A stretch of 64,000 nt of DNA from Methanotrichaceae archaeon (lineage in GTDB: Archaea; Halobacteriota; Methanosarcinia; Methanotrichales; Methanotrichaceae): assembly GCA_963813075.1 (NCBI GenBank), contig CAWEXU010000004.1, positions 1-64,000 of the forward strand. Direction: 5' to 3'. The position numbers and the translations under genes were made by a program. Under the pieces are notes generated by a model. It did no database searches, had not been told where the DNA came from, and saw only the letters and a list, made by a program, of their open reading frames with translations. Shown here piece by piece: positions 1,230-64,000 of the stretch (positions are counted from its first letter, which is position 1; each line of letters starts with the position of its first letter).

Positions 1230-1420
1230 AAATTAGGCTCCTCCGATCGGATGAAAGCGATCGTCCGGATCTCTGGACAAGGTCGATCCAGTCCTCCAGA
1301 GCGCTCACGAGTTCATCCCTGCAGCCCTCCAGTCCGCTACTCTCGAAGCCCAAGCCTCTCCAGCCCAAATCCATTCTAGCAGTCCTAATCATTGCTTTCG
1401 TGAAAACTGCTCCCAATAAT
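1230..1420 (-). pseudogene. Degraded HicB-like antitoxin remnant
   Basis: LEGCRDELVSALEDWIDLVQRSG resembles the HicB motif TLEECxxELxSxLEDWI; N-terminal part appears deleted. Confidence 0.45.
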
Positions 1421-49565: not shown

Positions 49566-50024
49566 ATGGAGGAGATGGCAGATATGGGCCTGGGGCATAG
49601 CCAGAGGCATAGTATCTACCTTTCAGGCCCTCTCTTCTCCGCGGGCGATATCGCCTGGGGAAGAGAGCTCTCTTCCTTTCTGCGCGAGCGGCTGGCAAAT
49701 GCCGGCGTTCAAGTATTCTGGCCCTATGAGCTATCCATAAATCAGCTGGATCCGGAGGAGATATTCCAGGAGAACCTGAGAGCTCTGGACCGCTGCGAGC
49801 TGATGGTGGCCATGCTGGACGGACCCCAGGTGGATGACGGCACCGCCTGGGAGATCGGCCGATTCTTCCATCAGGGCAAAAAGGTCCTGGGGATAAGAAC
49901 GGATATCAGGAAAGGAGGCGAGTCCGATAGCCTCCATGTCAACCTGATGATAGAATGCTCATGTATCTACATAGCCTCAAACATTGCGGAGCTTTATTCA
50001 GAGCTGGAGAGGCTGCTGGAGTGA
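49566..50024 (+). CDS. Nucleoside 2-deoxyribosyltransferase family
   Basis: IYLSGPLFS, DDGTAWEIG, NLMI. Confidence 0.88.
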   Translation: MEEMADMGLGHSQRHSIYLSGPLFSAGDIAWGRELSSFLRERLANAGVQVFWPYELSINQLDPEEIFQENLRALDRCELMVAMLDGPQVDDGTAWEIGRFFHQGKKVLGIRTDIRKGGESDSLHVNLMIECSCIYIASNIAELYSELERLLE

Positions 50025-50824
50025 CAACTTCGGAATCCATTGACTCTGCTGAGCCTTTTTCTTCGCCCTCCCATTCCATCACACCAGTCTTCGATGCCCC
50101 TCTCCTCCTGGCAGAGGGCAAAGAAAGCGTCCTCATCGCCTCCGACCTCCACCTGGGCCTGGAGCACGAGCTATGGCTGGGAGGGGTATCCATACCCAGT
50201 CAGACCAAAAAGATCCTCGACCTCCTGAAAGGACACCTGGAAGTGATCAGGCCGGATAGGCTGATGATCTTAGGAGACCTCAAGCATAATGTCCCCAAGA
50301 TCAGCTGGCAGGAGAGACGAGAGGTCCCGGACTTCCTCCGCCAGCTATCAGGCCAGTTGAAGGTGGAGATCATCCTGGGAAACCATGACAGCAACCTGGC
50401 GGATATGGCCCCCCTGGGGGTGAGAGTGCATCCTTCCACTGGTATCCTGCGAGAGGGCAGGGGCTACTTTCATGGCCATACCTGGCCAGACGAGAGGGTT
50501 ATGGGTGCCGGCATTCTGGTGGCAGCGCACCTGCACCCAGCGGTAAGGCTAAAGGATCCGCTGGGCAACTTCCAGACCCATTCGGTATGGGTCAGAGCGC
50601 CCGTCCGTTCCGAGGTGATAAGAGAGCATTACGGCTTTGACTATCAGGGGGAGATCATCATTATGCCCGCCTTCAATCCCCTTTGCGGCGGCCTGGCACT
50701 CAATGAGCCGGCAGAGGATATGCGCGGCCCTCTGCTGGCGATGGCTGACATGGAACGCGCTCGCCTCTATCTGCTGGATGGAACCGATCTGGGTCAGCTC
50801 GCCAGGATCAGGGCGGCCCAGTAG
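50021..50824 (+). CDS. Metallophosphoesterase
   Basis: SDLHLG, GDLKH, GNHD, HGH, HLHP, MPAF. Confidence 0.9.
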   Translation: MTTSESIDSAEPFSSPSHSITPVFDAPLLLAEGKESVLIASDLHLGLEHELWLGGVSIPSQTKKILDLLKGHLEVIRPDRLMILGDLKHNVPKISWQERREVPDFLRQLSGQLKVEIILGNHDSNLADMAPLGVRVHPSTGILREGRGYFHGHTWPDERVMGAGILVAAHLHPAVRLKDPLGNFQTHSVWVRAPVRSEVIREHYGFDYQGEIIIMPAFNPLCGGLALNEPAEDMRGPLLAMADMERARLYLLDGTDLGQLARIRAAQ

Positions 50825-50887
50825 TGGCCACGATGAACAGCAAGGATTATCAGCTCTTCCTCCGCTTTGCATTCAGGATAAGAGGGA

Positions 50888-51457
50888 TTGAAATTGAATG
50901 ATAGAGATCGACTCCTGGAGCTGCTGATTGAGAGATCGCTGGAGATAAGGCCGGTCACCCTGTCCTCAGGCAGGAAGAGCGACTATTATATAGACTGCAA
51001 AAAGGTTACATTGAGCCCGGAAGGGGCCTATCTTACTGCCAAGCTGATGCTGGAGATCATCCGACCTGAGGTATCAGCCGTGGGTGGTCTGACCTTGGGA
51101 GCGGACCCCATAGTATCATCCATATCCGTCCTGAGCCATCTGCAGGGCAGAGGGCTGGCTGCGCTGATAGTGCGAAAAGAGCCCAAGAAGCACGGCACCA
51201 TGAGCTATGTGGAGGGGCCGGTGCTGGAGAGCGGAACAAAGGTGGCGGTAGTGGAAGATGTTGTCACCTCTGGAGCCTCGCTCTTAAAAGCAATTGATCG
51301 AATTGCCGCTGCTGGCTACGAGCCGGTGCAGGCCCTGGCCATCCTCGACCGCCAGGAAGGCGGACGGGAGGCTATAGAGGAGCGCGGATTCCGTTTGCAG
51401 GCGCTCTATAATCGTGGCGATCTGGGTGTGGATAAGCAGAAGGGCGAAAAACTCTAA
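50888..51457 (+). CDS. pyrE: Orotate phosphoribosyltransferase
   Basis: LSSGRKSDYYIDCK, RKEPKKHG, VVEDVVTSG. Confidence 0.93.
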   Translation: MKLNDRDRLLELLIERSLEIRPVTLSSGRKSDYYIDCKKVTLSPEGAYLTAKLMLEIIRPEVSAVGGLTLGADPIVSSISVLSHLQGRGLAALIVRKEPKKHGTMSYVEGPVLESGTKVAVVEDVVTSGASLLKAIDRIAAAGYEPVQALAILDRQEGGREAIEERGFRLQALYNRGDLGVDKQKGEKL

Positions 51458-51472
51458 AATTTTAGGTGCTCT

Positions 51473-52126
51473 TCAGCGGCTTCGCTCCTTGTCGTGCTCA
51501 GCATAGCGCTCCGATATCTGGTCTGGAGTCTGATCCTCATTCAGGTGAGGAGCATCTTCCGGGCAGTCAGCGCTATAATAGCCGTCCGGGCTCATGGGAA
51601 GGGGACTGTTTGGCATCCAGCCGCTCTGGTTCATCTCAACCCCCCCAGGAGGATAGAATTGAGATGAATTCCCAGGAGCACTGCCGTTTAGTTGAGGCCC
51701 GACGCCAGGGGGCAACATCTGGCCTGGCTGCTGCTGCATAGGCTGGCCAATAGCGGTGACGGGCGACTCCAGGGTCACCTTTCTCCAGTTTCCATCCTCA
51801 GAATACGATACTTGAGAGGCTACAATATAAGTGCCGCTCTGCACTGCTCGTATCGGATAGCTGATAGGAGCGGTTATGCCAGGATATAGCTGCGCGGTCT
51901 GGCCTTCCGGATTGCTGGTCTCAATGCCAGGAGGAAGCCCGGGAGTTATAATCGCCTGAGTGGCATCGCTGCCGTAATAGGTCAGGGTAACTGTAACCAT
52001 TGCATTCTCGCCGACGTTTACCGACGGAGGAACACTCTGTCCGGCCGTCAGCTGTGCCGTGGCCGGTCCCATGAATGCCCCGATCGCCAGGAACAAAAGA
52101 ACCCACACCAAACCCAAGTTTTTCAT
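51473..52126 (-). CDS. Secreted Ig-like protein with P/Q-rich tail
   Basis: Signal peptide, BatD/DUF11-like strand pattern. Confidence 0.7.
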   Translation of the reverse strand: MKNLGLVWVLLFLAIGAFMGPATAQLTAGQSVPPSVNVGENAMVTVTLTYYGSDATQAIITPGLPPGIETSNPEGQTAQLYPGITAPISYPIRAVQSGTYIVASQVSYSEDGNWRKVTLESPVTAIGQPMQQQPGQMLPPGVGPQLNGSAPGNSSQFYPPGGVEMNQSGWMPNSPLPMSPDGYYSADCPEDAPHLNEDQTPDQISERYAEHDKERSR

Positions 52127-52285
52127 CGACCCTCTATTTTTTCCGGCGAGATTTAAAGATAGCTGTCATACGAGATTTATATGAGAGCCATCCCGTGCAT
52201 TGATCACGATTTCTCTACCTGGAGAGGAGAAATTCTCTTTCGCCATACATAAAATACTTATTTGGATTGAAGATATGCATATCTG

Positions 52286-53524
52286 ATGGACGTCTCTTTC
52301 TCTGCCTGGCGGCATTCGCGCGAAGAAAGCTTGCAGCTCAAAGGAGATAGTTTCTCCTTCCTCTTCGATAGGCGTTACACCAATAGGCTCAATAGAATGA
52401 GCCGGGTTTTCTTCGAGGCTTATGTCGTCGCCACCAAAGAGCTGGCCGCGCAGGAGGACCGCTTCCCCAGCCTCAGCGAGATCGACGCAAAGATGGAGAG
52501 CGGCGCTGTATATGCATTCAAGGACCGGCTGATGAAGAACACCGAGTTCTTCGAAGAGGTCAAGATATCCGGCGTCTCCTATCTGGTTCCGCGCGCCCTC
52601 AAATTTGTGGATTCCACAGGCACATATACCGATCTGATCCTGAACTTCGATGAGGGGGCGGTGGTCCTGCCCACGCGCAGGAAAACGCCCTCCCTTGCCG
52701 AGCCGGCGACATCCTCAGATGAAGAGGAAGCGGTCTCCAACGAGCTGGAGGAGGAAACCGAATTAGAAACGGAACCGGAAGAAGAGGCCGCCCCTGAGCC
52801 CAGACAGGAATCCTATTCCGGTCTATTCGAGAAGACGTGGATAGCCATCGCGACGGAGAATGGTGCCGCGGATGTTGCCGAGGCTCCTGTCGCGAAGGCG
52901 GAGGAGAAAGCTCCTCCCAAGGTCGCCGAGCCGGTCCCAGCCACTCCTTTAACGGCAAAGGAAACGCCTATGCCCCCCGCAAAAGCAAGAATGAGCAAAG
53001 AGATGTTGATCGCCATAGTGGCAGGTTTAATCATACTGATAGCGGTGGGGGCGTATCTATTCTCCGGCGGTTTTCCAATAAACGGCCAGGTCTCCAACGG
53101 CTCTGGGAAGCCTTTGATCTTTGTCGATTACTCTGCTTATCTGGTCAATTCCAGCAATGAAAGCTATCTTGGCTTTGACATGAGCAATCCCCAGGGAATG
53201 CCCAATGAGATTGAGATGAAGCTGCCACCAAATATCGATGAAAGCATTAGCGCCCGGGGAGGAATAGTGACCATAGCTCATGGAGCGGACACCCTGGTGA
53301 GGATGAACTCCAGTACCGATGCCAGCGTGAAGATATATCTGCTGAACAACTGGACCCAGGTCCCTCTGACCCTCAGCTTTTCGGGCGCTGAGGACTATGA
53401 TACCAACCTGCAGGTTTATGGCCAGGATTACCTTGTCACGCGCAAGAACGATACCCTGATCTTAAACTTGAATTTGACCGGGGATGGCTTGAAGTTTGAG
53501 CAAAGCTACGCCAAAAAGAGCTAG
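52286..53524 (+). CDS. Bitopic membrane protein (acidic/Pro linker, one TM, extracellular domain)
   Basis: 412 aa ORF, TM IAIVAGLIILIAVGAYLF, N-x-S/T sites after the TM. Confidence 0.75.
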   Translation: MDVSFSAWRHSREESLQLKGDSFSFLFDRRYTNRLNRMSRVFFEAYVVATKELAAQEDRFPSLSEIDAKMESGAVYAFKDRLMKNTEFFEEVKISGVSYLVPRALKFVDSTGTYTDLILNFDEGAVVLPTRRKTPSLAEPATSSDEEEAVSNELEEETELETEPEEEAAPEPRQESYSGLFEKTWIAIATENGAADVAEAPVAKAEEKAPPKVAEPVPATPLTAKETPMPPAKARMSKEMLIAIVAGLIILIAVGAYLFSGGFPINGQVSNGSGKPLIFVDYSAYLVNSSNESYLGFDMSNPQGMPNEIEMKLPPNIDESISARGGIVTIAHGADTLVRMNSSTDASVKIYLLNNWTQVPLTLSFSGAEDYDTNLQVYGQDYLVTRKNDTLILNLNLTGDGLKFEQSYAKKS

Positions 53525-54527
53525 CCTCCTTCTCGCGGTGAGGGCAAAGAAGGAGGATGTAGCTGCCACTCTGAAGATCATCATTGAACAGGGATTGCTG
53601 GATCGCAGCCGAAAGGTGGTGGAGAAGAGCAGCTATGTGGAGATACCGGTCACAGATTTTGTGCCCGGCTTTCAGGTCATATCTCAGAACAGTCCAGTAT
53701 TCTACCGGAAGACGCCGGATCTGACAGAAGCCCTGAAGAGTGAGCTTTTGCCAGAGGAGATAGAGCTTCTTCCTCGAGGATGGCAGATCCTGGGAGAGGT
53801 CATCGTGGTCAAGATCCATCCCCGCCTTAACCTTTACCAGGGCCGCATAGCACAGGCTCTATTGGATTTTTACCCCCGCTGCAAGACCGTCCTGCGTGAC
53901 TATGGCATAGAGGGCCCCTTCAGAGAGCCGATGCGGGAGACGATCGCCGGCACGAAGACAGAGACTGTACATCGAGAGAATGGAGTCACTTTTAACCTCG
54001 ATGCCAGAAAGGTGATGTTCTCGGCAGGCAACCTGAGTGAGCGCATGCGCATGAGCAATCTTGGCCGGGGAGAGTATGTGGTGGACATGTTCGCCGGAAT
54101 TGGCTATTTCTCCATTCCCATGGCCGTTCACTCCCGGCCCAGCAAGATCCTGGCCATCGAATTGAACCCCAATGCTTACCACTATCTCTGCCAGAACATC
54201 AGAATGAATCGGGTAGAGGAGATAGTAGAGCCCGTTCTGGGTGATTGCGCGAAGGTGACTCCAGAGGGGGTGGCGGATAGGGTGGTGATGGGCATGGTCC
54301 AGGTAACCGATCGATATCTTCTAAAGGGGATCGGCGCTCTGCGGCCGGGCGGGGTGCTGCACTATCATCAGACTATACCATCAAGTATGCACCCCAAAAA
54401 GGCTATATGCGACATCGAGGAGGCGGCGAGGGCTATTGGAAGGCGATTCCAGATTCTGAGATGTATTCGGGTGAAGAAGTACTCTCCAGGAGTGGTCCAT
54501 TCGGTAGTGGATGCCAGGATAGAATAG
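53496..54527 (+). CDS. Trm5/Tyw2-family SAM-dependent tRNA modification enzyme
   Basis: HRENG, KVMFSAGN, DMFAGIGYF, ELNP, VKKYSPG. Confidence 0.9.
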   Translation: MSKATPKRASLLLAVRAKKEDVAATLKIIIEQGLLDRSRKVVEKSSYVEIPVTDFVPGFQVISQNSPVFYRKTPDLTEALKSELLPEEIELLPRGWQILGEVIVVKIHPRLNLYQGRIAQALLDFYPRCKTVLRDYGIEGPFREPMRETIAGTKTETVHRENGVTFNLDARKVMFSAGNLSERMRMSNLGRGEYVVDMFAGIGYFSIPMAVHSRPSKILAIELNPNAYHYLCQNIRMNRVEEIVEPVLGDCAKVTPEGVADRVVMGMVQVTDRYLLKGIGALRPGGVLHYHQTIPSSMHPKKAICDIEEAARAIGRRFQILRCIRVKKYSPGVVHSVVDARIE

Positions 54528-54683
54528 CCGTAATGGCGAAATTGCATCGGGATAGAAAGGTCATGACCGCTGCCCGAATGTGCTCAAGAAAACGGATAGG
54601 AGAAGGAAGTCTGTGATAAGGCAGCAGGTATCGAGGAAATGGATCGATAGATTAATAACCACCTGTTGCAAGGTTAGAGGCGA

Positions 54684-54756
54684 AGCCCGGTAGTGTAGCG
54701 GTCAATCACAGGAGGCTCTGGACCTCCTTACCTAGGTTCGAATCCTGGCCGGGCTA
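54684..54756 (+). tRNA. tRNA-Gln(CTG), intronless
   Basis: Acceptor agcccgg/ccgggct, anticodon arm ggagg-ctCTGga-cctcc, T arm ctagg-ttcgaat-cctgg. Confidence 0.95.
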
Positions 54757-54791
54757 CTTTTCCGTATTCGAATTATGCTGTGAAATTCCTT

Positions 54792-55118
54792 TCACGGATC
54801 AATGCGATCTCTCTTCAACTCATCCATGGCCTCTGGGGTGAGCCTGATCTCTGCCAGCTGGATTGCACCCATCGAGGAGATCATCCTGGTCATCATCTCT
54901 GATATCCTCCTCCCCAGGTCTTCCTCTTTGCTGAATAGGGCCATGGATAAAGCATAGCCAAGGTTGTATGCCGTCCAGCTGGCATAGGTGAAGTGGACCA
55001 TCAGATCCTCCACCCTCCCTTCAACCCAGGGGCCATCCGATTCCTCGCAGATCACTCTGGATCGAATCTGATTCAAGCTCTGGATTTCCGCCTCAAACTG
55101 AACTAAACCCTGTCTCAT
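54792..55118 (-). CDS. Hypothetical protein
   Basis: 108 aa ORF with host-like codon use. Confidence 0.65.
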   Translation of the reverse strand: MRQGLVQFEAEIQSLNQIRSRVICEESDGPWVEGRVEDLMVHFTYASWTAYNLGYALSMALFSKEEDLGRRISEMMTRMISSMGAIQLAEIRLTPEAMDELKRDRIDP

Positions 55119-55229
55119 AAGATATCACATCCTTTGTGCTTGGTTTGCTTTCGGCCGTTTTTTCTGTTCCATGCAGCTGTCCAGTTACTGTTTGCCAAAT
55201 AGCTATTGTTTATTAGGCACTCATTCCTA

Positions 55230-56546
55230 GTCAACTACCGCGTCCTGAAGGGCGCGGCTTGCGACTACGCAAAAAGTCGTGTCGCGTCTGGCGGGCTGAC
55301 ATTACCGCCCTGAGACTCCAGGATATACCTCAAGTCTCGTGTTCGGTGCTCTATGTTCATAGCACCAGCTCTGTCGGCATGGGTTTCGTAACCGCATTTT
55401 TCGCATCGGAAGGCTACACCGCAGCGGTTAATTCGGCTGATGTGGTTACATCTGGGGCAAGTTTGGGAAGTATATTCAGGATTTACATAGATTACCGCTA
55501 TCCCGGCTTCTTTAGCTTTGTATTCCACGAAAGCCTGTAGTTGCCTGAATGCCCAACTGCTATGCTCGTACCTGAATTCTGTAGAGACTTTGTTTCCCGC
55601 TCTCTTCCTGATGCCCGTCAAATCTTCCATGCCTATTACCGAAACGTCATTATCTATAGCAAATTCTATGAGATCCCTGGATACCTTATGGTTGACGGCA
55701 GTCATGAACCGTGTCTCTCGACCTGCTATTTTTCTAAGAGTTGTCATAGAAGATCGAGTGCCCAAATATCGACCGCCTGCTTTCTGCAATCTCCGGCGTT
55801 CCTTGGATCGGATGTTTCGGTGATTCTTGATTTCACCACCTGCGAAGAATTTGCATTGCTTGTCCGTGGTAGATGCAACCGCGAGACAGTTAATACCGAC
55901 ATCAACACCCATGAAAGTGGATGCATCAACTATATTCTTATCTGGAATATCCTTTGCACAGGCCAAATGGAAAAAGTAAGCTCCGTTCTTATGTAAACAA
56001 AGCTTGGATGCCAGATATTTCCAGGACCCGTCTAAATATCTCTGAGCATACTGGTAATTCCAGAGCTTATATCTCCTTCGACCCGCTAATGTGGTTATGC
56101 TCAAGGTATCTTTGGATAAGCCAAAATCGCGTTCAAAGGAGAATGTAGCCGAGGTTGGATCGAAATCGAGTAATTGCCATTCTGATTCTCTTTTGTCGAT
56201 CTGACTCTGAAGTGTTTTGTAAGCTCCTGAAACCTGGCGAGCTACATTGCAAGCCATCTGAGATTTCAGGTTAAGATTGTTCCGCAGATGCTTGTAAGTG
56301 GCTTTTTGGATAAGTCCACTTCCAACAGGCTTGCCAATTTCAAACACGATTTGCGAGGCATAATTCATGCCTTGAGAGAACGCTTTTAGCAACTCTGCTA
56401 GATCATTATCCGATGCATCTAATTTCAGGATAATGGTCTTTGTGAGCTGCATGGCTTGTTATATTCACTTAATGCTATATATTTTTATCTCAGGTGAAGA
56501 TATTTATACGCGCTCCTCCCCACCGCAAACGATGGAGACTCCGCGC
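55230..56546 (-). mobile_element. IS200/IS605-family element, tnpB-only (IS1341-like); left boundary approximate
   Basis: Right end gtcaactaccgcgtcctgaagggcgcggcttg hairpin (55230-55261); left-end hairpin ~56509-56546; no tnpA. Confidence 0.85.
55265..56452 (-). CDS. tnpB: RNA-guided endonuclease TnpB
   Basis: RuvC-I GVDVG, RuvC-II MEDL, CPRC/CEKC zinc finger, RuvC-III HADRAGAMNI. Confidence 0.93.
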   Translation of the reverse strand: MQLTKTIILKLDASDNDLAELLKAFSQGMNYASQIVFEIGKPVGSGLIQKATYKHLRNNLNLKSQMACNVARQVSGAYKTLQSQIDKRESEWQLLDFDPTSATFSFERDFGLSKDTLSITTLAGRRRYKLWNYQYAQRYLDGSWKYLASKLCLHKNGAYFFHLACAKDIPDKNIVDASTFMGVDVGINCLAVASTTDKQCKFFAGGEIKNHRNIRSKERRRLQKAGGRYLGTRSSMTTLRKIAGRETRFMTAVNHKVSRDLIEFAIDNDVSVIGMEDLTGIRKRAGNKVSTEFRYEHSSWAFRQLQAFVEYKAKEAGIAVIYVNPEYTSQTCPRCNHISRINRCGVAFRCEKCGYETHADRAGAMNIEHRTRDLRYILESQGGNVSPPDATRLFA

Positions 56547-56734
56547 TGCTGCGAGTTGAAGGTTGTTGTCTTAATCGCGAGGCTGCAAGCTGGGAGGAGA
56601 CCGTTCGGGATATCGCACTAACTATATTTAAAAATATCATCAGAAGAATAAATTAACCATAAGGTTGCGCCATTTTAATAGTTGCCCTCTGTCCCGAAAA
56701 CTAGATATATCTATAACGAATAAAAAAGTATTTT

Positions 56735-57175
56735 GCCGCGTGATACCCTCGAATAGATGCGGACTGATAAGCCGATTAAGCCTTTGCCGGCCAATCATCC
56801 TGGCAATGGGTGATTGATCTCATCCTCCATCAAAGAGCCAGATCAATCAAGCTGGGCCGGATGGCGCCGCACGAATAAAGGTGCAGGTCTTCGGCAGTCT
56901 GGCGAAAACGCCATTGAGCGCAATATAAGATCCTGTCGCCAAGTCTGCATGATGATGATCGCGGAGCGGGTAGTGCGAAGGAATGAGCCATGAAAGATCC
57001 CTCACCACCGGTGATCGGGTCCCCGTAAAAAGGGCGCTGTGCAAGAATCCAGTGCTGTCTGGCTTCTTCCTCGCATTGGCTGAGGGCGGGATGAGACAGC
57101 CACATAATATGCGGATCTGTTTCCTCTTGAGGGGAGCGCTGTGGCCTGGCGTTTGTCCTGCCTCTATCTCACCTG
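56735..57175 (+). ncRNA. Candidate large structured non-coding RNA, family unrecognised
   Basis: Five nested long-range helices plus local hairpins, G-U pairs on + strand, upstream gatatat TATA-like box, no convincing ORF. Confidence 0.7.
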
Positions 57176-57275
57176 CTAATCCAATTTTCCTGAAATTCCC
57201 TTTTCAAGCAAAAAATTTATATCATACCACTATCATAAGGTTAGTATGCTAAAGTAATTGTGAGGTGAAATAGAT

Positions 57276-57863
57276 ATGTGGGACAAGAAGTATCCATCAA
57301 TATTCGATATATTTGAGAGTTTCACAAAAGGCTTCCCCTTTGAGAGGAAGGAGAGGTTCGAGGATGATTGGTTCAAAGAGCCCTTTGAGAGCATGATCCA
57401 GAGGTTCGAGGAATCCATGCCCAGCGAGTTCAATGAACTGATTCGCGAGGAGGAGACACCCTCTGGCGTATCTCGCCGCTATGGGCCCTTCGTCTATGGC
57501 TTCAGCTACACCGCAGAGCCGGGAAAGGAGCCCGTATTCCAGGAGTTTGGCAACATCAAGCCCTCCTACCGGGGAATTGAGCCCAGCCAGGGCAGAGAGC
57601 CACTGGTCGATGTCATGAGCGAGAAGGACAAGTTCAAGATATTCGTCGAGCTTCCAGGCGTCGAAAAGGAAAAGGTGAAGCTGGATGTGGCAGAGGACAG
57701 CGTGGAGATCAAAACCGATGACGAGAAGAAGTTCTACAAGATGATATATCTGGACTCCACCGTAGATCCGGACAGCGCCAAGGCCTCCTACAAGAACGGC
57801 ATATTAACCCTGGAGCTGGATAAGAAAGAGACGAGAAAAGGAAAAGAGGTGAAGATCGACTAG
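57276..57863 (+). CDS. hsp20: Small heat-shock protein (archaeal Hsp20)
   Basis: GPFVYGFS...EFGN...REPLVDV...ELPGV...ASYKNGIL. Confidence 0.93.
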   Translation: MWDKKYPSIFDIFESFTKGFPFERKERFEDDWFKEPFESMIQRFEESMPSEFNELIREEETPSGVSRRYGPFVYGFSYTAEPGKEPVFQEFGNIKPSYRGIEPSQGREPLVDVMSEKDKFKIFVELPGVEKEKVKLDVAEDSVEIKTDDEKKFYKMIYLDSTVDPDSAKASYKNGILTLELDKKETRKGKEVKID

Positions 57864-57897
57864 GAGGATCCAATAGGTGAACAAATGGGCGGATCGA

Positions 57898-58085
57898 AGA
57901 AGGGATTGAAAGCTAGAATATCCTTTCGGGCATCCGTTCTGACATCCATTCTGGATGCATCCGGAATAGTGGGATGGACGGGGCGGTGAGACCAGGTGGC
58001 AGGGCGCTCCTGTCTTGCCCCTGGGATGGATAGGTCGGTGATCTGCCTGGGTTTGACCTGATGTGATGTGTTCTGCTCAACCTTT
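57898..58085 (+). ncRNA. Candidate structured RNA / structured 3' UTR downstream of hsp20
   Basis: Three hairpins with +strand G-U pairs and a possible closing helix. Confidence 0.45.
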
Positions 58086-58301
58086 TATTAATCAGTATGA
58101 AGCAATAACTTGAGCAATTGGCTCCCTATACAGAACAGAGTATATCACCAATTCTATGCAAAATTGCAGGATTTCTTTTACATATTATACCTAGATAAAG
58201 GCTACATGAAATTCATATGATTCAAAATATGAGTATAATAATCTAATAAAAAGCCAATGTGAAAAACAACTACTTAAATCATTCCGTACCATGTAGATTA
58301 C

Positions 58302-58475
58302 ATGCAGCAGATGAGTGAGATATGGGGGCAGGGAATTGAGGTGGGTGATGATGGCCAAAACGGCATATTTCGGGTTCTCGGCCGGGTTATGCAGGGCAAA
58401 TACGGAGATGTAATCCTGCTATGCACGGTCATGGCCGCCTTCGTTATGCTCCTGGCGTTCTCTGCCTCCTGCTGA
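58302..58475 (+). CDS. Possible small membrane protein (57 aa)
   Basis: MQQMSEIW...VILLCTVMAAFVMLLAFSASC, C-terminal TM; AT-rich upstream region. Confidence 0.45.
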   Translation: MQQMSEIWGQGIEVGDDGQNGIFRVLGRVMQGKYGDVILLCTVMAAFVMLLAFSASC

Positions 58476-58592
58476 GATAAGCCAGCAGGTGGGCAAGAGA
58501 TCTGCCCTCCGGAGATCTGCGTAATCCCCTCTTTTTCCATAACAAAGATTAAATTACCTCCGATACTCTGGTGCCATACCGAGGATTGGGAA

Positions 58593-60338
58593 ATGGACAG
58601 GAATGAGTTGGTAAATGAACTTGCCCGCAGGCGGGGCTTTCTCTGGCCCGCTTTCGAGCTCTACGGCGGAGCGGCGGGATTTTACGATTACGGCCCTCTG
58701 GGAGCACCACTCAAGAGGCGCATTGAAGACATCTGGCGGCAGTATTTCGTCATTGCCGAGGGTTTCGCAGAGATCGAGGCCCCAACCATCGGGGTGGAGG
58801 GGATCTATCAGGCTTCAGGCCATTTGAGCGGATTTTCCGATCCCCTCACCGGCTGCAAAGAGTGCAAGGAGGTCTACCGGGCAGATCACCTGATAAAGCA
58901 TATCATAGAGGTTCCCGATGCCCTGAAAAATGATGAGATCTACCGCTGCATGCAGGAGAATGAGATCACCTGCCCGGAATGCGGCGGCGAGCTCTCAGAG
59001 GTCTATGAGTTCAATCTCATGTTCAAGACCATGATCGGCCCGGGAAATAAGATGACCGGCTACATGAGGCCGGAGACTGCCCAGGGGATGTTCATCAACT
59101 TCCCCCGGCTCCTGCGTTACTTCCGGGGGGCTCTGCCTTTTGCGGCAGTGCAGATCGGCAAGTCCTATCGAAATGAGATCTCCCCCCGTCAGGGAGTGAT
59201 CAGGTTGAGGGAGTTCACCCAGGCTGAGGCCGAGATCTTCATCGACCCGCGGGACAAAACACACCCCAGATTCGATGAGGTAAAGGATATCCGGATGAAG
59301 TTCTACTCCCAGGAGGCGCAGGAGAGGGGAGAAGAGGATGAGATGAGCTTTGGCGAAGCGGTGGAAAAGGGAGTTGTCGCTCACCAGACTCTGGCCTATT
59401 ATGTGGCCCGGACATACCAGTACCTCCTGGCGGTGGGCATAGACCCGCAAAAGCTTCGCTTCCGCCAGCATAAGTCCGACGAGATGGCCCATTATGCTGC
59501 CGACTGCTGGGATGCGGAGGTCCTTTTGGACCGGCTGGGCTGGATAGAGCTGGTGGGGGTGGCGGACAGGACCGACTACGACCTTAAAGCCCATACTGCA
59601 GTCAGCAAGGTGAACCTTTCCGTCTTCGTCAATTACGACCAACCCGTAAAGCGGCAGAAGCTGGTGGTCAAACCCGATTTCAAGGCCCTGGGGCCGATGT
59701 TCAAGGGGAAGGCCAAAGCGGTAGCTGAGGCCTTGCGCGCCCTCACTCCCCAGGAGCTGAGCGGGGATAAGATTCAGTTGTCTGTGGATGGAGAGATTAT
59801 CGATATTGACCGGGCTTTAGTCTCCTTTGAGGAGGTTGAGGAGGAGGTGCGGGGAGAGGAAGTGGTGCCTCATGTGATTGAGCCCTCCTTTGGCATTGAC
59901 CGGATACTCTATTCCATTCTCGACCATTCCTACTACGAGGATGAGATCGATGGCGAGAAGAGAGCAGTCCTCAGGTTCAAGTCGCGAGTAGCGCCAATTG
60001 AGGTGGCTGTGCTGCCTTTAATGGATAGAAGCGAGCTGACAGGGCCGGCGAAGAGGATACTGGAGGAATTGCGTTCCCGGGGCATGAGGACGGACTACGA
60101 CACCTCCGGGTCCATCGGCAGGCGTTACCGGCGCAACGATGAGGTCGGGACACCTTATGAGGTCACTGTTGACTATGAGACCATTGAAGAGAGCACTGTC
60201 ACCATCAGGGATAGGGATAGCATGAGCCAGGTCAGGGTTCCTCGCTGGCAGGTGGTGGATAAATTGCAGGCCCTCCTCAATGGGGACCTCTCCTTCCAGG
60301 ATGCTGGCGATCCCGTCCGTTCAGCAAAGAGCGATTGA
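58593..60338 (+). CDS. glyS: Glycyl-tRNA synthetase (archaeal/eukaryotic type)
   Basis: YDYGPLG, RPETAQG, RNEISPRQG, VIEPSFGIDR. Confidence 0.96.
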   Translation: MDRNELVNELARRRGFLWPAFELYGGAAGFYDYGPLGAPLKRRIEDIWRQYFVIAEGFAEIEAPTIGVEGIYQASGHLSGFSDPLTGCKECKEVYRADHLIKHIIEVPDALKNDEIYRCMQENEITCPECGGELSEVYEFNLMFKTMIGPGNKMTGYMRPETAQGMFINFPRLLRYFRGALPFAAVQIGKSYRNEISPRQGVIRLREFTQAEAEIFIDPRDKTHPRFDEVKDIRMKFYSQEAQERGEEDEMSFGEAVEKGVVAHQTLAYYVARTYQYLLAVGIDPQKLRFRQHKSDEMAHYAADCWDAEVLLDRLGWIELVGVADRTDYDLKAHTAVSKVNLSVFVNYDQPVKRQKLVVKPDFKALGPMFKGKAKAVAEALRALTPQELSGDKIQLSVDGEIIDIDRALVSFEEVEEEVRGEEVVPHVIEPSFGIDRILYSILDHSYYEDEIDGEKRAVLRFKSRVAPIEVAVLPLMDRSELTGPAKRILEELRSRGMRTDYDTSGSIGRRYRRNDEVGTPYEVTVDYETIEESTVTIRDRDSMSQVRVPRWQVVDKLQALLNGDLSFQDAGDPVRSAKSD

Positions 60339-60356
60339 GTGGGAAAGGGCGAGGAA

Positions 60357-61022
60357 ATGGATATCTCGGAAAAGGAGTGTGCAAGAGGAGTCTCATCCCT
60401 GCCTGATATCGCCCCTGACTGGCGAAGAAGGCTGATTGTGGAGATAAGGAGAAAGGCCATTCACCTCTCCGGCCTCTCCGTCCCCCTATCTCTTCTGCTC
60501 TTTGGCAGGGATTTTACCATCGGCTTTGTGGCCCTTGCTCTGGCTATCTCGCTGATCCTGGAGTGGCAAAGGCTGAAGGGACGGATTCGCCTTCCCGAGG
60601 TGCGGGCCCAGGAGGAGCATAAGGTGGCCAGCTTCGTTTATTACATCACCGGCTGCCTCTTATGCGTCATTTTCCTTCCGAAGATGATCGCGGTGAACGC
60701 CGTCCTGCTGCTCTCTTTGGGCGACACTATCAGCGGTCTCGCGGGATCGGTTCTAGCCAACGCTGATGTGCGCGGCAGGAAAGAGATGTGGGGATGCAAG
60801 CCCTTGCCTATTATGGCCGCCATGTTCTCCGGCTGCCTTCTGATCGGATATCTGGCCTCGGGTGTAACCCAACTATCTTTTCCGGTCTATCTGGCGGGAG
60901 CAGTTGCGGCGACTATCGCTGATGGCGTATGCATAATCGTCAATGGCATGGGGCTTGACGACAACTTCTCCATACCGGTCTTCTCCGGCCTGGTGATGAC
61001 CGGGGCGGCAGCAATATTTTAG
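60357..61022 (+). CDS. Dolichol/phytol kinase-like membrane protein
   Basis: RRKAIH, LGDTISGLAG, DDNFSIP. Confidence 0.8.
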   Translation: MDISEKECARGVSSLPDIAPDWRRRLIVEIRRKAIHLSGLSVPLSLLLFGRDFTIGFVALALAISLILEWQRLKGRIRLPEVRAQEEHKVASFVYYITGCLLCVIFLPKMIAVNAVLLLSLGDTISGLAGSVLANADVRGRKEMWGCKPLPIMAAMFSGCLLIGYLASGVTQLSFPVYLAGAVAATIADGVCIIVNGMGLDDNFSIPVFSGLVMTGAAAIF

Positions 61023-61140
61023 ATCGTCACCTCCCAAGAGCGGGGAATGGAAAAGGTTTTTTAGTCTGGGGATTGTACTCTTTCAGCGCTTGAAAGCGGC
61101 AAATGGCTGCAAGGCTATGGGAATTAGGAGGATTGGATAA

Positions 61141-61788
61141 ATGAATATTATATTGCTCGGCCCGCCGGGATCCGGCAAGGGCACACAGGCTAAGATGATC
61201 GCCGACAAGTACAAGGTAACTCACGTATCCACCGGTGACATTTTAAGAGAGAACGTTCGCAGCGGCACCCCCCTGGGGGTTGAGGCCAAGAAGTTCATGG
61301 ATGCAGGAAAGCTGGTTCCAGATGCCCTGCTCATCGATATCATCAAGGACCGCCTGGCAAAAGACGATGTCAAGGGCGGATGGATGCTGGACGGATTCCC
61401 CAGGACCATGCCCCAGGCAGAGGCACTGGACAAGATCCTGCCCACTCTGGGCCAGAAGATCGATGTGGTCCTGAATATCGATGTTCCGGATGAGGAGCTG
61501 GTAAAGAGGGTCACAGGAAGGAGAATGTGCAAGTGCGGCACCACCTATCACGTTCAGTTCAACCCGCCAAAGGTGGCCGGAAAGTGCGATGCCTGCGGCG
61601 CAGACCTCTACCAGAGGGCGGATGACAACGAGGAGACGGTCAAGCAGAGGCTGTCTGCCTATCATGCCCAGACCCAGCCTTTGATCGACTACTACAACAA
61701 GCGCGGCATTGTGGCCACGGTGCTTGGCGTGGGCGACATCAAGGCCATCTTCGGCGAGGTCGTCAAGGCTCTGGATAAGAGGGCATAG
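61141..61788 (+). CDS. adk: Adenylate kinase
   Basis: GPPGSGKGTQ, LDGFPRT, QRADD. Confidence 0.96.
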   Translation: MNIILLGPPGSGKGTQAKMIADKYKVTHVSTGDILRENVRSGTPLGVEAKKFMDAGKLVPDALLIDIIKDRLAKDDVKGGWMLDGFPRTMPQAEALDKILPTLGQKIDVVLNIDVPDEELVKRVTGRRMCKCGTTYHVQFNPPKVAGKCDACGADLYQRADDNEETVKQRLSAYHAQTQPLIDYYNKRGIVATVLGVGDIKAIFGEVVKALDKRA

Positions 61789-61874
61789 AGCCTTCGAAAT
61801 CCTTTTTTCAAAATTTTTTGGCTGGCTACCGGCAAAAGAGAAAATAGAGTACTGTTTTTGATCCGCGGTCGTGT

Positions 61875-62207
61875 CTATCGCTTTGGAATCCAGACCAGCT
61901 TTCTTTCTATTGTCGCCTCGGCGTTCTCCGTCAGGATGAGCCGCTGAGCCTTGTGCCTTCCCGTTTTCGCTATGAATTTTGGATCACTGACCTTTCTGGC
62001 TTCTGCTCTGATTCTATAGCCATAGATGGAGTCTCCAACTTCATAGCATTCCATCAAAGCACCTCCAGCCTCCCTTCTCATTTCAGCTCCTCCACGATCT
62101 GGCAGACCAGCTTAAAGTCAATCTCCAGGTCTTCTTCGATCTCGGATGGATATGCCTCTCTTCTTTCCTGGAAATATCCCATGACTTCCTTTTTAGCGGT
62201 ATCGTAA
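61875..62207 (-). pseudogene. Truncated small gene pair; upstream gene cut off at the IS-end-like element
   Basis: Headless fragment DTAKKEVMGYFQERREAYPSEIEEDLEIDFKLVCQIVEELK ending at 62078; second ORF from ATG 62054 with GGAGGTG RBS. Confidence 0.45.
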
Positions 62208-62375
62208 TCAACTCACGAACCCCAGTAATGGCGGGGAGCTTGCTCAAGGGATCTCAAGGCCAGGGGTTAAGGTAACTGGATGGATGCGACCAACTTGCAT
62301 GACCGTCTTCGGACAAATCTACAGCCGAGACCCTTGAGACCGGCATGCTGTGGAGTGAGGATTTGCTCACTTTAC
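62208..62375 (+). mobile_element. Non-autonomous IS200/IS605-end / omega-RNA-like structured element
   Basis: tcaact...cccc...ggggagcttg resembles the end at 55230; followed by multi-helix structure. Confidence 0.5.
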
Positions 62376-62476
62376 TGAAATGATCTCATGAGCTTTGAAG
62401 AAGTGAAATGATGATCAACTGACGCTAAAAAGTGAATCATTAAATTAAAATAATAGTTCAAAAAATTGATGGTGAG

Positions 62477-63971
62477 TTAAGAACTCGCCCAATTTTTAAT
62501 TGCATCATCTACGTATGCTTTAGTAACTTCACCTCGGGAATACATATTGATGGCTTCGACCGTTTCAGATAATGTAACAGTCCCGTCGATATTCAGATCG
62601 CCTGCATTGCTCGTAAGATTATAGCTGTCGCCGCTTCCATCTTGGGCGGAGAACTTCCACGTGACGGGATTAGCTGTGTAGTATACTGACATGGCATATT
62701 GATTGCTGAGCTGGTTCCAGGATTTGCTTGCTTCGTTCAATCTCCAGATCTTTGTATCAACGCCTTTGGCATTTACCTTCACATCTGCGTTGGATTTGAA
62801 GTTCAAGCTGCCCCTAACTTCCGATCTTACCGAAGGATTGAAGTTAATGACATCGCCCGCAGTTGTTCGCTCAATGGCGGAAGTCTAGAGTCCAGATTTC
62901 CAATGGTTGCGTGTTTCTGTGGTGACCACATAGCCCGCAACGGTTCTCGTCTAGGCTGTGGCATTATCGCTGTTAGTGCTCATAATGGCACTAGATTGGG
63001 CATTGGCATAGGTAGTGCTCTTTACATTTCTAGTTGTAGCTGAGGCGGTTATGCTTCCTGATCCAAGCAATTGCCAATCCGCATGGGACACTGCCTTGTA
63101 GTAATTGGTTTTTGCAGTGCTTAGTCTGTAATAGGCTTCACTATCTGCAGAGGCGGAATTTGCTGATCCGCTGATCGTAGCCTTGGCATCCATTCTATGG
63201 GTGCCACCAAGAGTCCACTCCTGAGCCGTCGCTTCTGTCACCTTCGTAGAAGTACTCTCTGTAATCGCATTGGCGACTTTTAATGCTGGTGCTAACTGAT
63301 GCTCTATCATAATTTTGAGCTGCAGTGTAACTGGGAGCACTTCTGGTGTATGCAGTCATGTCCAGAGCTCCATTTGCATTCGAGACATCCTGTGTCATAT
63401 ATATGCTCGATATCGCTGGAGAATACCCTGTATCAAGCCAGGCTTTGGCAGAGTTCTTGAATGTTGCTTTCCCGTTTTCTTGTGTGAGCTTTGTTGAGCT
63501 ATAGCCGTTCAGCTTTTCGCCAGGGGTTCGATAGCCTTCAGCACGAGCTTCCTGGTAAGCGTACAGGTAACCCTTCTTTGTCGTCCCTGCTCCGGTTATA
63601 TAGCCTCGATTGCTTACCTCGATTGAGTTTGTATCTTTGTATGCATTTCCTGAGAACTCAATGGGGTAGCCGTATCCTGTTGCATAATTATGAATGCAAT
63701 ATTTGCCGCTTGAACTGCAATACCATTTATCTATTGTGGGCAAATCACCTCTTGTACTTGAAGATCCTTTATAGTAGTACCATGAATCCGCTAAGGTTGC
63801 GGCTCCTAAAGTTACACTTTCACGTATACTATCTGATTTTCCTGCTAAAAAATTGCTTGTAGTTGAATCTTCTCCATTGCTAAAGCTTGCGGAAATCGCA
63901 AAAGCTGGCAGTGCAATGGCGTGTATTGAAAGAAGCAATACTCCCAGCACTAGAACTGAAGATCTCGACAA
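62477..63971 (-). CDS. Large secreted protein with C-terminal dockerin-like motif (frameshifted; AT-richer)
   Basis: Signal peptide in 63195-63971 piece, contiguous pieces to GDLNIDGTVTLSE...W at the C-terminus. Confidence 0.6.
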
Positions 63972-64000
63972 ATCTATTCCCTCCTCGCTTAATCTATTTT

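What the first reader, a model, noticed from the sequence alone, without database searches (positions are those of the whole stretch)
56735..57175. Candidate novel ~420-nt multi-domain structured ncRNA with its own promoter
Seen in sequence: nested long-range helices atagatgcggac (56753-64)/gtcctgcctctat (57155-67), tctcatcct (56818-26)/gggatgaga (57088-96), gagccagat (56835-43)/gtctggctt (57057-65), gctggg (56851-56)/tccagt (57048-53) and atggcgcc (56861-68)/ggcgctgt (57033-40). Local hairpins include caatcatcc/gggtgattg with a GCAA-containing loop (56792-816), gcac/gtgc, tggcg-aaaa-cgcca, tctgc/gcgga enclosing a C-box-like ATGATGA (56949-55; possible L7Ae K-loop), gatcc-tcacc/ggtga-gggtc and gccaca/tgtggc. 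The non-Watson-Crick pairs are mostly G-U on the + strand (A-C on the - strand), which points to selection on a plus-strand RNA. A TATA-like gatatat sits at 56704-10, and hsp20 has a separate tttata box near 57216. Established knowledge: archaeal RNase P needs GAGGAAAGUCC/ACAGAA...GGCUUA and SRP RNA needs the CAGG-CCCGGAAGGG-AGCA helix 8; neither is present, nor is a group II domain V. Inference: an undescribed large archaeal ncRNA or RNP scaffold.
Basis: partly seen in the sequence, partly recalled or inferred. Interest (0 to 1): 0.88.

Follow-up and report, generated by a model that had tools for sequence, protein, structure and literature searches.

The report
Multi-copy structured RNA family in Methanothrix
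This is a roughly 440-letter non-coding RNA gene, one of several related copies in the genomes of acetate-eating methane-producing archaea, built from repeated four-armed folds and matching no catalogued RNA family, so it points to an undescribed piece of RNA biology in these microbes.

Summary
Window 56735-57176 (+) is a stand-alone non-coding RNA of Methanotrichaceae with no Rfam match. Covariance models find it in 90 of 105 family genomes (1-14 copies each, 5 in this genome) and give no convincing hit in the other families sampled. A conserved 40-nt promoter block precedes 107 of 142 copies examined. Contigs of 4 metatranscriptomes stop at its predicted ends (a hint, not proof). The five long-range helices proposed show no covariation (0.129 vs 0.127 shuffled). 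A different fold does (0.216 vs 0.161): a variable 5' domain plus two homologous four-way junctions with no unpaired junction bases, the first with T-loop-type loops. A ~95-nt single-junction form exists as its own gene. Copies sit beside unrelated genes, so it is not an hsp20 leader. Most likely it acts in trans as a shape-recognised protein decoy or scaffold (0.5; inferred). The chromatin protein MC1 is a weak partner lead. Not RNase P, SRP, C/D guide, Y RNA or a cobalamin riboswitch.

The parts
56692..56731 (+). Conserved 40-nt promoter block (BRE-like purine run, TA-rich box, conserved downstream element), shared by dispersed copies
   Evidence: Found upstream of 107 of 142 distinct copies; in this genome only 4 sites score above 50 bits and all 4 head RNA copies; best non-RNA site 19.8 bits. 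Promoter role is inferred from archaeal promoter anatomy.
56735..57176 (+). The RNA gene (subtype A, the single copy next to hsp20), about 442 nt
   Evidence: Conservation across orthologs begins and ends here; RNA contigs of 4 studies cover 56741-57172 at most. Exact ends not mapped.
56735..56965 (+). Domain I (variable between subtypes), closed by P1 56735-41/56959-65; P2 56759-65/56942-48; P3 56771-75/56891-95; a three-way junction 56779-82/56863-68/56886-90; hairpins 56793-815 and 56869-84; helix 56900-05/56936-41
   Evidence: P1 93% paired with 5 of 7 pairs doubly changed, P3 97%. P2 and 56900/56941 were mis-registered in the alignment (38% and 50%) and give 76% each when re-registered.
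56966..57176 (+). Domain II, closed by 56966-70/57172-76, carrying the two junction modules
   Evidence: Closing helix 92% paired; 56972-77/57072-77 82%.
56987..57063 (+). Module 1: four-way junction with no unpaired junction bases (56994-96/57055-57; 56997-57000/57017-20; 57021-23/57032-34; 57035-39/57050-54), two A-rich loops with T-loop signatures
   Evidence: Junction helices 92-99% paired in 53 sequences; pair 57021-57034 is C-G in 40 and U-A in 11. Loop signatures URRRA in 47 of 53 and UGNNA in 45 of 53; T-loop reading is from established motif knowledge.
57085..57162 (+). Module 2: second, homologous four-way junction (57085-95/57152-62; 57096-97/57119-20; 57121-25/57132-36; 57137-41/57147-51)
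   Evidence: Helices 91-98% paired, 8 of 12 closing pairs doubly changed; independently predicted by RNAalifold; a profile of module 1 hits module 2 at E down to 2.9e-5. One junction pair has two equally good registers (51 of 53 each).
57276..57863 (+). hsp20 gene with its own conserved promoter near 57210-57270; constant downstream neighbour of subtype A only
   Evidence: PF00011; 47 of 243 distinct copies lie beside it; in L024 about 1.2 kb separate the RNA from the hsp20 promoter.
55265..56452 (-). IS605-type tnpB, a lineage-specific insertion, not part of the RNA system
   Evidence: PF07282 and PF01385; orthologous loci, including the 83% identical L006, have the 108-aa gene directly upstream instead.
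54792..55118 (-). 108-aa ORF of no known family, the usual divergent upstream neighbour of subtype A (next to tRNA-Gln 54684-54757)
   Evidence: Neighbour cluster of 37 loci; no Pfam hit; no usable Atlas hit; tRNA.

Best explanation
A family of independently transcribed, trans-acting structured RNAs whose working unit is a four-way junction with two A-rich loops. The unit occurs alone (~95 nt), doubled (~200 nt) or doubled behind a variable 5' domain (300-520 nt). Shown: the gene, the fold, the modular build, the shared promoter block, multi-copy dispersal, presence in RNA libraries. Inferred: the junction is recognised by shape by an abundant protein, and the RNA titrates or scaffolds it, more modules and more gene copies giving more binding sites under one transcriptional control. 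The best partner lead is the chromatin protein MC1, which prefers four-way DNA junctions; I put that specific pairing at about 0.15.
For: Stems change freely with compensation while junction geometry and loop motifs are kept: 32 of 51 pairs doubly changed in 53 two-module sequences; 14 of 19 in 21 mostly single-module sequences (alignment fitted to the model); loop signatures in 45-47 of 53. Module repeated within the RNA and used alone as a gene. Neighbouring genes vary and are often convergent. One promoter block, almost confined to these genes. RNA contigs bounded by the predicted ends in 4 of 4 runs laid. MC1 lies upstream on the same strand within 1.5 kb of 11 of 67 subtype-D copies and 2 of 60 unclassified copies, once as a tandem MC1-RNA-MC1-RNA. 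MC1 binds DNA four-way junctions with KD about 2.5e-8 M (PMC6776556, passage seen). Precedent for an ncRNA bound by a nucleoid protein: naRNA4 with HU (PMC4550694, abstract seen).
Against: No binding partner is shown. MC1 linkage is confined to one subtype (0 of 47 hsp20-linked, 0 of 42 B, 0 of 27 other A/C, 0 of 28 single-module copies), so it may be one inherited arrangement; DUF1699 is linked more often (18 of 67 D). Copy numbers of MC1 and RNA correlate over the family (rho 0.69) but weakly inside the main genus (0.34; 0.15 after genome size), and kin are not independent. MC1 is present in all 7 genomes of a genus that lacks the RNA. MC1 binding to RNA was not seen in the passages read. 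Truncated and decayed copies exist.
Confidence: 0.5

Rival explanations
1. A selfish or passenger element: a non-autonomous mobile unit (promoter plus RNA) that spreads at DNA level, the fold serving its own mobility or persistence.
For: Two copies in this genome are 97.5% identical over 553 bp covering just promoter and RNA, with unrelated flanks; sharp common boundaries in many genomes; tandem, truncated and decayed copies; two IMG/VR contigs carry copies, one beside a tyrosine recombinase and ParA.
Against: The hsp20-linked copy keeps one locus across several genera and forms, with subtype C, one deep clade; the single-module gene is single-copy in 13 of 14 genomes of one genus. No empty site, terminal repeat or target duplication seen. 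The recombinase is near only 10 of 271 copies. Copies include the external promoter, which an RNA intermediate would not carry.
Confidence: 0.15
2. An RNA-only machine: a ribozyme, or a self-assembling RNA in the manner of OLE, ROOL or GOLLD, with the T-loop-type loops making RNA-RNA contacts.
For: Size, repeated modules, near-invariant junction pairs including G-U at 57036-57053 (51 of 53), conserved loop signatures.
Against: Junctions carry no conserved unpaired bases, which catalytic cores usually need (established knowledge); no covarying long-range or loop-loop pairing stood out; a single module suffices as a gene.
Confidence: 0.15
3. A tRNA mimic or tRNA-elbow binder acting on translation: the single module is a tRNA-sized cloverleaf, and paired T-loops are used by T-box leaders and RNase P to grip tRNA.
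For: The ~95-nt form has a long closing stem and three arms; two T-loop signatures on adjacent arms. The T-box and RNase P comparison is recalled, not tested.
Against: No tRNA call by ARAGORN or Rfam on the window RNA or on single-module loci; no CCA end seen, no conserved D-loop or anticodon-like loop.
Confidence: 0.1
4. A cis-acting leader (riboswitch or thermosensor) of hsp20 or other downstream genes, possibly derived from the cobalamin riboswitch.
For: 47 of 243 copies precede hsp20 on the same strand. The order of motifs in module 1 resembles the RF00174 consensus printed; 2 of 6 cobalamin riboswitches score 5.9-6.6 bits at their T-loop hairpin with a module profile (shuffled 95th percentile 2.7, maximum 6.4 of 300).
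Against: Most copies have unrelated or convergent neighbours; hsp20 has its own conserved promoter, separable by 1.2 kb; RNA contigs do not run into hsp20; RF00174 does not hit this genome; the module model gives at best 8.3 bits, E 0.11, on 6 cobalamin riboswitches and the pairing differs from RF00174.
Confidence: 0.05
5. A base-pairing regulatory sRNA.
For: A pyrimidine-rich loop near 56818-56830 with an anti-Shine-Dalgarno-like core is kept in many subtype A orthologs.
Against: That loop is missing from other subtypes and from some A copies; the conserved core is paired; no complementary match in the genome better than E 0.06.
Confidence: 0.05

Closest known systems
Large structured ncRNAs of unknown or partly known function: OLE, ROOL, GOLLD
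   Same: Several hundred nt, multi-domain, own promoter, conserved by structure, function not evident from sequence. OLE is about 600 nt and forms an RNP (PMC9723947, abstract start seen); ROOL and GOLLD details are recalled.
   Different: No Rfam match to any of them; archaeal; several divergent paralogs per genome; built from one repeated ~80-nt junction that also exists as a gene.
CsrB/RsmX-Y-Z protein-titrating sRNAs (recalled)
   Same: Several paralogous RNA genes under a common promoter element, repeated binding units, action in trans: the working model here.
   Different: Units here are four-way junctions, not GGA-loop hairpins; no Rfam match; partner unknown.
naRNA4 with HU in Escherichia coli (PMC4550694, abstract seen)
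   Same: An ncRNA from multi-copy extragenic elements bound by a nucleoid protein that recognises branched structures: the precedent for the MC1 lead.
   Different: naRNA4 comes from short REP palindromes; the present RNA is a dedicated gene with a covarying multi-junction fold; MC1 binding is untested.
Cobalamin riboswitch (RF00174)
   Same: A T-loop hairpin followed by a similar short motif, and an A-rich loop before three G's (consensus; weak profile scores).
   Different: Different pairing, no B12-box-like linkers, not a leader of cobalamin genes, no model match either way.
Archaeal RNase P RNA and SRP RNA
   Same: Size class and stand-alone archaeal gene.
   Different: RNase P RNA lies elsewhere in this genome (C6:52441-52743); an SRP helix-8 motif lies on C5; neither model matches here.

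Membership tests
Any Rfam 15 family | Score at or above the gathering threshold | tested here: not met
   Whole window: only a tRNA. Region 56300-57500: 4 matches, all below threshold, E 0.27-8.6. 18 and 8 further loci: only tRNAs pass.
Archaeal RNase P RNA (RF00373) | Model match with the P4 core | tested here: not met
   The genome's one match is at C6:52441-52743, 216 bits; none in the window.
Archaeal SRP RNA | Helix 8 motif and model match | tested here: not met
   No match in the region; the motif is found on C5 by pattern, not confirmed with the model.
Cobalamin riboswitch (RF00174) | Model match | tested here: not met
   0 matches at E up to 1 in this genome, control rang in 9 of 14 genomes; reverse test at most 8.3 bits on 6 riboswitches.
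Cobalamin riboswitch (RF00174) | Position in the leader of cobalamin-related genes | tested here: not met
   None of 30 neighbour proteins scanned is a cobalamin transport or synthesis protein on my reading of the Pfam hits; one ParA hits the CbiA P-loop model. Only a sample of neighbours was scanned.
Cobalamin riboswitch (RF00174) | Ligand binding | not testable with these tools
   Needs in-line probing.
C/D box guide RNA or L7Ae K-loop RNA | Conserved C box with a D box | tested here: not met
   RUGAUGA in 2 of 32 orthologs at the proposed place.
Y RNA | Ro60/TROVE gene in the genome, usually adjacent | tested here: not met
   0 PF05731 matches in this genome, which is 83% complete; other genomes not tested.
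TnpB omega-RNA | Overlaps the 3' end of tnpB and travels with it | tested here: not met
   The RNA lies beyond the 5' end of tnpB on the other strand; orthologous loci lack tnpB there.
tRNA or tmRNA | Cloverleaf with canonical T and D loops | tested here: not met
   No call within the RNA.
Protein-coding gene or its remnant | Conserved reading frame, triplet indels | tested here: not met
   40 of 534 indels are multiples of three; longest stop-free runs range 48-159 codons with no common frame length.
MITE or non-autonomous insertion sequence | Terminal inverted repeats, target duplication, empty sites | tested here: inconclusive
   None seen in 32 flank pairs of subtype D or among genus matches; close strains of one species were not available.
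CsrB/Rsm-like protein-titrating RNA (works-like claim) | Multivalent binding of one protein | not testable with these tools
   Repeated module and shared promoter fit; binding not testable.

The most novel reading that the evidence does not exclude
A new class of archaeal RNA that mimics a four-way (Holliday-like) junction and titrates or organises the chromatin protein MC1 or another branched-nucleic-acid binder, with binding capacity tuned by the number of junction modules per RNA and of RNA genes per genome: RNA control of chromatin in acetoclastic methanogens.
Probability: 0.15. Interest if true: 0.95.

Novelty: categorically new. Interest (0 to 1): 0.8.

Why it matters
Few large structured RNAs are known in archaea beyond RNase P, SRP and rRNA (established knowledge). 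This family is near-universal and multi-copy in Methanotrichaceae, acetate-consuming methanogens of digesters and wetlands, and turns up in 16 RNA runs. It shows a series from one junction to two to a three-domain RNA, a direct view of how a large RNA is built by module duplication. The ~95-nt form makes structure and partner searches easy. 'Categorically new' refers to the family and fold; its mode of action may prove to be a known one such as protein titration.

Tried and rejected
Single-sequence folding: uninformative. My early idea of a circularly permuted cobalamin-riboswitch core: dropped once the Rfam structure line showed other pairings and reciprocal tests failed; a pattern scan for cobalamin riboswitches in viral contigs found 0. 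Link to tnpB: window-specific. Ro60/TROVE partner: none in this genome. DUF1699 as profile partner: present in 105 of 105 genomes, no family-wide copy-number correlation (rho 0.14), though 0.48 inside the main genus. Empty sites or target duplications: none. Hits outside the family: 1 of 76 class genomes with R1 (E 0.012; degenerate on inspection), 3 of 150 phylum genomes with R2 (E 6e-4 to 2e-3; two look like coding sequence, one is ambiguous), 0 of 76 with R3. R3's closing stem was out of register (37% paired), which may lower its reach. One of 3 viral pattern hits (L163) is chance. A copy on a 2.7-kb contig labelled Patescibacteria (L106) is of the B/D type and probably mis-binned (inference). 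Lack of contig cover over the flanks is not taken as evidence that they are silent. Earlier-findings look-ups returned nothing. Paper searches listed nothing that describes this RNA by title or abstract start.

Full report
Observation. The stretch lies between an IS605-type tnpB (55265-56452, minus) and hsp20 (57276-57863, plus). Rfam 15 gives no family at threshold in the window apart from a tRNA and only sub-threshold matches in the region.

Homologs. BLAST-type search found matches in 65 of 105 genomes of the family, 8 of 16 genera. A covariance model of the 3' domain (R1) found 364 matches in 85 of 105 genomes, 1 to 14 per genome, median 4 among positives, and 5 in this genome. Module-level models added five genomes, giving 90 of 105. 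The 15 negatives are all 7 genomes of one genus, three small genera (2, 1 and 3 genomes) and 2 genomes of the main genus; most are drafts, one is a single contig. Outside the family: 1 weak hit in 76 class genomes, 3 weak hits in 150 phylum genomes, 0 in 76 with the single-module model; none is convincing. These are samples searched with filters, so 'not found', not 'absent'. An exact-pattern scan of GTDB genomes gave 67 loci: 59 titled Methanothrix, Methanosaeta or Methanotrichaceae, 5 'uncultured Methanosarcinales', 2 'uncultured archaeon', 1 short contig titled Patescibacteria. Two of three viral-collection hits are true copies.

Structure. A different structure scores 0.216 against 0.161 (0 of 500), 86% paired, 56 of 115 pairs doubly changed, slid controls 38-42%; two helices were mis-registered by the aligner and reach 76% when corrected. 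On 53 diverse 3' domains (A1; 53 of 73 extracted, near-duplicates, one single-module copy and one deleted copy left out) the structure gives 91.4% paired against 84.7% shuffled, 32 of 51 pairs doubly changed, slid controls 37-46%; RNAalifold finds the same core unprompted. These shuffles do not correct for kinship and the structure was read from the same sequences, so the numbers lean in its favour; the contrast with the rival fold on one alignment is the firmer result. The RNA has a variable domain I (56735-56965) and a conserved domain II (56966-57176) with two four-way junctions that have no unpaired junction bases. A profile of junction 1 detects junction 2 (E down to 2.9e-5), so they are duplicates. 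Junction 1 carries loops with URRRA (47 of 53) and UGNNA (45 of 53) signatures, read as T-loops from established knowledge. G-U cells outnumber A-C cells 403 to 52, fixing the plus strand; 40 of 534 indels are triplets, so it is not a gene remnant; the C-box motif is in 2 of 32.

Subtypes. A tree of 106 3' domains splits two clades with full support: A plus C, and B plus D (bootstrap not fully settled). A is single-copy beside hsp20; B, C and D are dispersed, often in tandem. A ~95-nt single-junction RNA with another promoter type is a gene in its own right, single-copy in 13 of 14 genomes of one genus and present in several others; its three inner helices are 91-98% paired with 11 of 12 pairs doubly changed (fitted alignment).

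Expression. A 40-nt promoter block precedes 107 of 142 distinct copies and, in this genome, scores above 50 bits only at four RNA copies. Twenty public runs hold part of the stretch, 16 on record as RNA. In the 4 laid, from 4 studies, contigs cover 56748-57170, 56741-57172, 56747-57130 and 56761-57115; the only other cover is three low-depth contigs over hsp20 (11 and 14 differences) and tnpB. Contigs show neither strand, ends nor level, the runs were chosen for holding the stretch and no DNA run was laid, so this is a hint of a discrete transcript.

Context. Of 243 distinct two-module copies, 47 lie beside hsp20; hsp20 has its own promoter, 1.2 kb away in one locus. The rest have varied, often convergent neighbours. 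The tnpB is absent from orthologous loci. Subtype D often follows DUF1699 (18 of 67) and MC1 (11 of 67); other subtypes never have MC1 nearby in my loci (flanks are short for some). Two copies in this genome are 97.5% identical over promoter plus RNA, and decayed copies exist, but no empty site or target duplication was found.

How it most likely works. Shown: a stand-alone, modular, structure-conserved RNA gene family with a shared promoter. Inferred: stems that vary freely around a fixed junction geometry with conserved loops point to recognition by shape, and repetition of the unit within and between genes points to titration or scaffolding of an abundant protein (0.5). MC1 is the best lead because it neighbours one subtype and prefers four-way DNA junctions (PMC6776556, passages seen), with naRNA4-HU as precedent (PMC4550694, abstract); PMC13729102 (abstract) ties MC1 to recovery from stasis in Methanosarcina. 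But the linkage may be one inherited event, the copy-number correlation falls from 0.69 to 0.15 within the main genus after genome size, and MC1 is present where the RNA is not. Rivals: mobile passenger 0.15, RNA-only machine 0.15, tRNA mimic or binder 0.1, cis leader 0.05, antisense sRNA 0.05.

Comparison and novelty. It fails tests for RNase P, SRP, C/D guide, Y RNA, tRNA and cobalamin riboswitch; the last resemblance is limited to a T-loop hairpin. Seven searches of the held library, judged by listing and abstract start only, showed no description; subscription journals and supplements of RNA-discovery surveys were not seen and could hold a listing. Verdict: a real, apparently undescribed archaeal RNA family; interest 0.8.

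Noticed in passing
L077 about 1310-1400 (minus); G000 C30:15582, C30:89645, C4:70142, C31:229864; L221-L250: A second, separate small RNA family (~75-90 nt) with its own promoter: a 10-bp stem whose loop and 3' tail each carry a CCCUCC anti-Shine-Dalgarno-like motif. It follows most subtype-D copies examined and has at least 4 copies in this genome. Not checked against Rfam on its own.
   Followed up: partly
L184, L185, L188, L254, L272, L301-L329: Single-junction ~95-nt RNA genes with a different promoter type; stems diverge almost completely between genera while loops and junction are kept.
   Followed up: yes
L295, L296, L297, L206, L218: Recurrent cassette MC1 - DUF1699 - subtype-D RNA - small RNA, sometimes with a short tyrosine recombinase; L218 has MC1-RNA twice in tandem.
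   Followed up: partly
L162, L164: Copies on two IMG/VR contigs; L164 lies between a ParA gene and a 194-aa tyrosine recombinase, suggesting carriage on an integrative element or plasmid.
   Followed up: partly
window 54792-55118 (minus): 108-aa ORF conserved beside tRNA-Gln at the subtype A locus in about 37 loci, with no Pfam or Atlas match.
   Followed up: partly
window 55265-56452 (minus): Apparently intact 395-aa IS605-type TnpB with no tnpA seen in the ORFs listed for 50000-64000; inserted between the 108-aa gene and the RNA promoter in this lineage only.
   Followed up: no
L105:1942-2961: A 340-aa ORF with a signal-peptide-like start and a eukaryote-like ubiquitin domain (PF00240, 105 bits) downstream of an RNA copy in a Methanotrichaceae record; 4 related ORFs among neighbours.
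   Followed up: no
family-wide: MC1 copy number is 0-2 (mostly 1) in several genera but 1-9 (mostly 3-5) in the main genus, an expansion that parallels the large-RNA expansion at genus level.
   Followed up: partly
L079 (G000 C30:11.3-14.5 kb): A recent RNA duplicate sits among a HicA-family gene, a small possible DNA-binding protein and a TPR protein, an island-like setting.
   Followed up: no
window 56793-56826: In subtype A the strand 56808-56815 can pair with either 56793-56800 or a similar stretch near 56819-56825, a possible local alternative fold.
   Followed up: no
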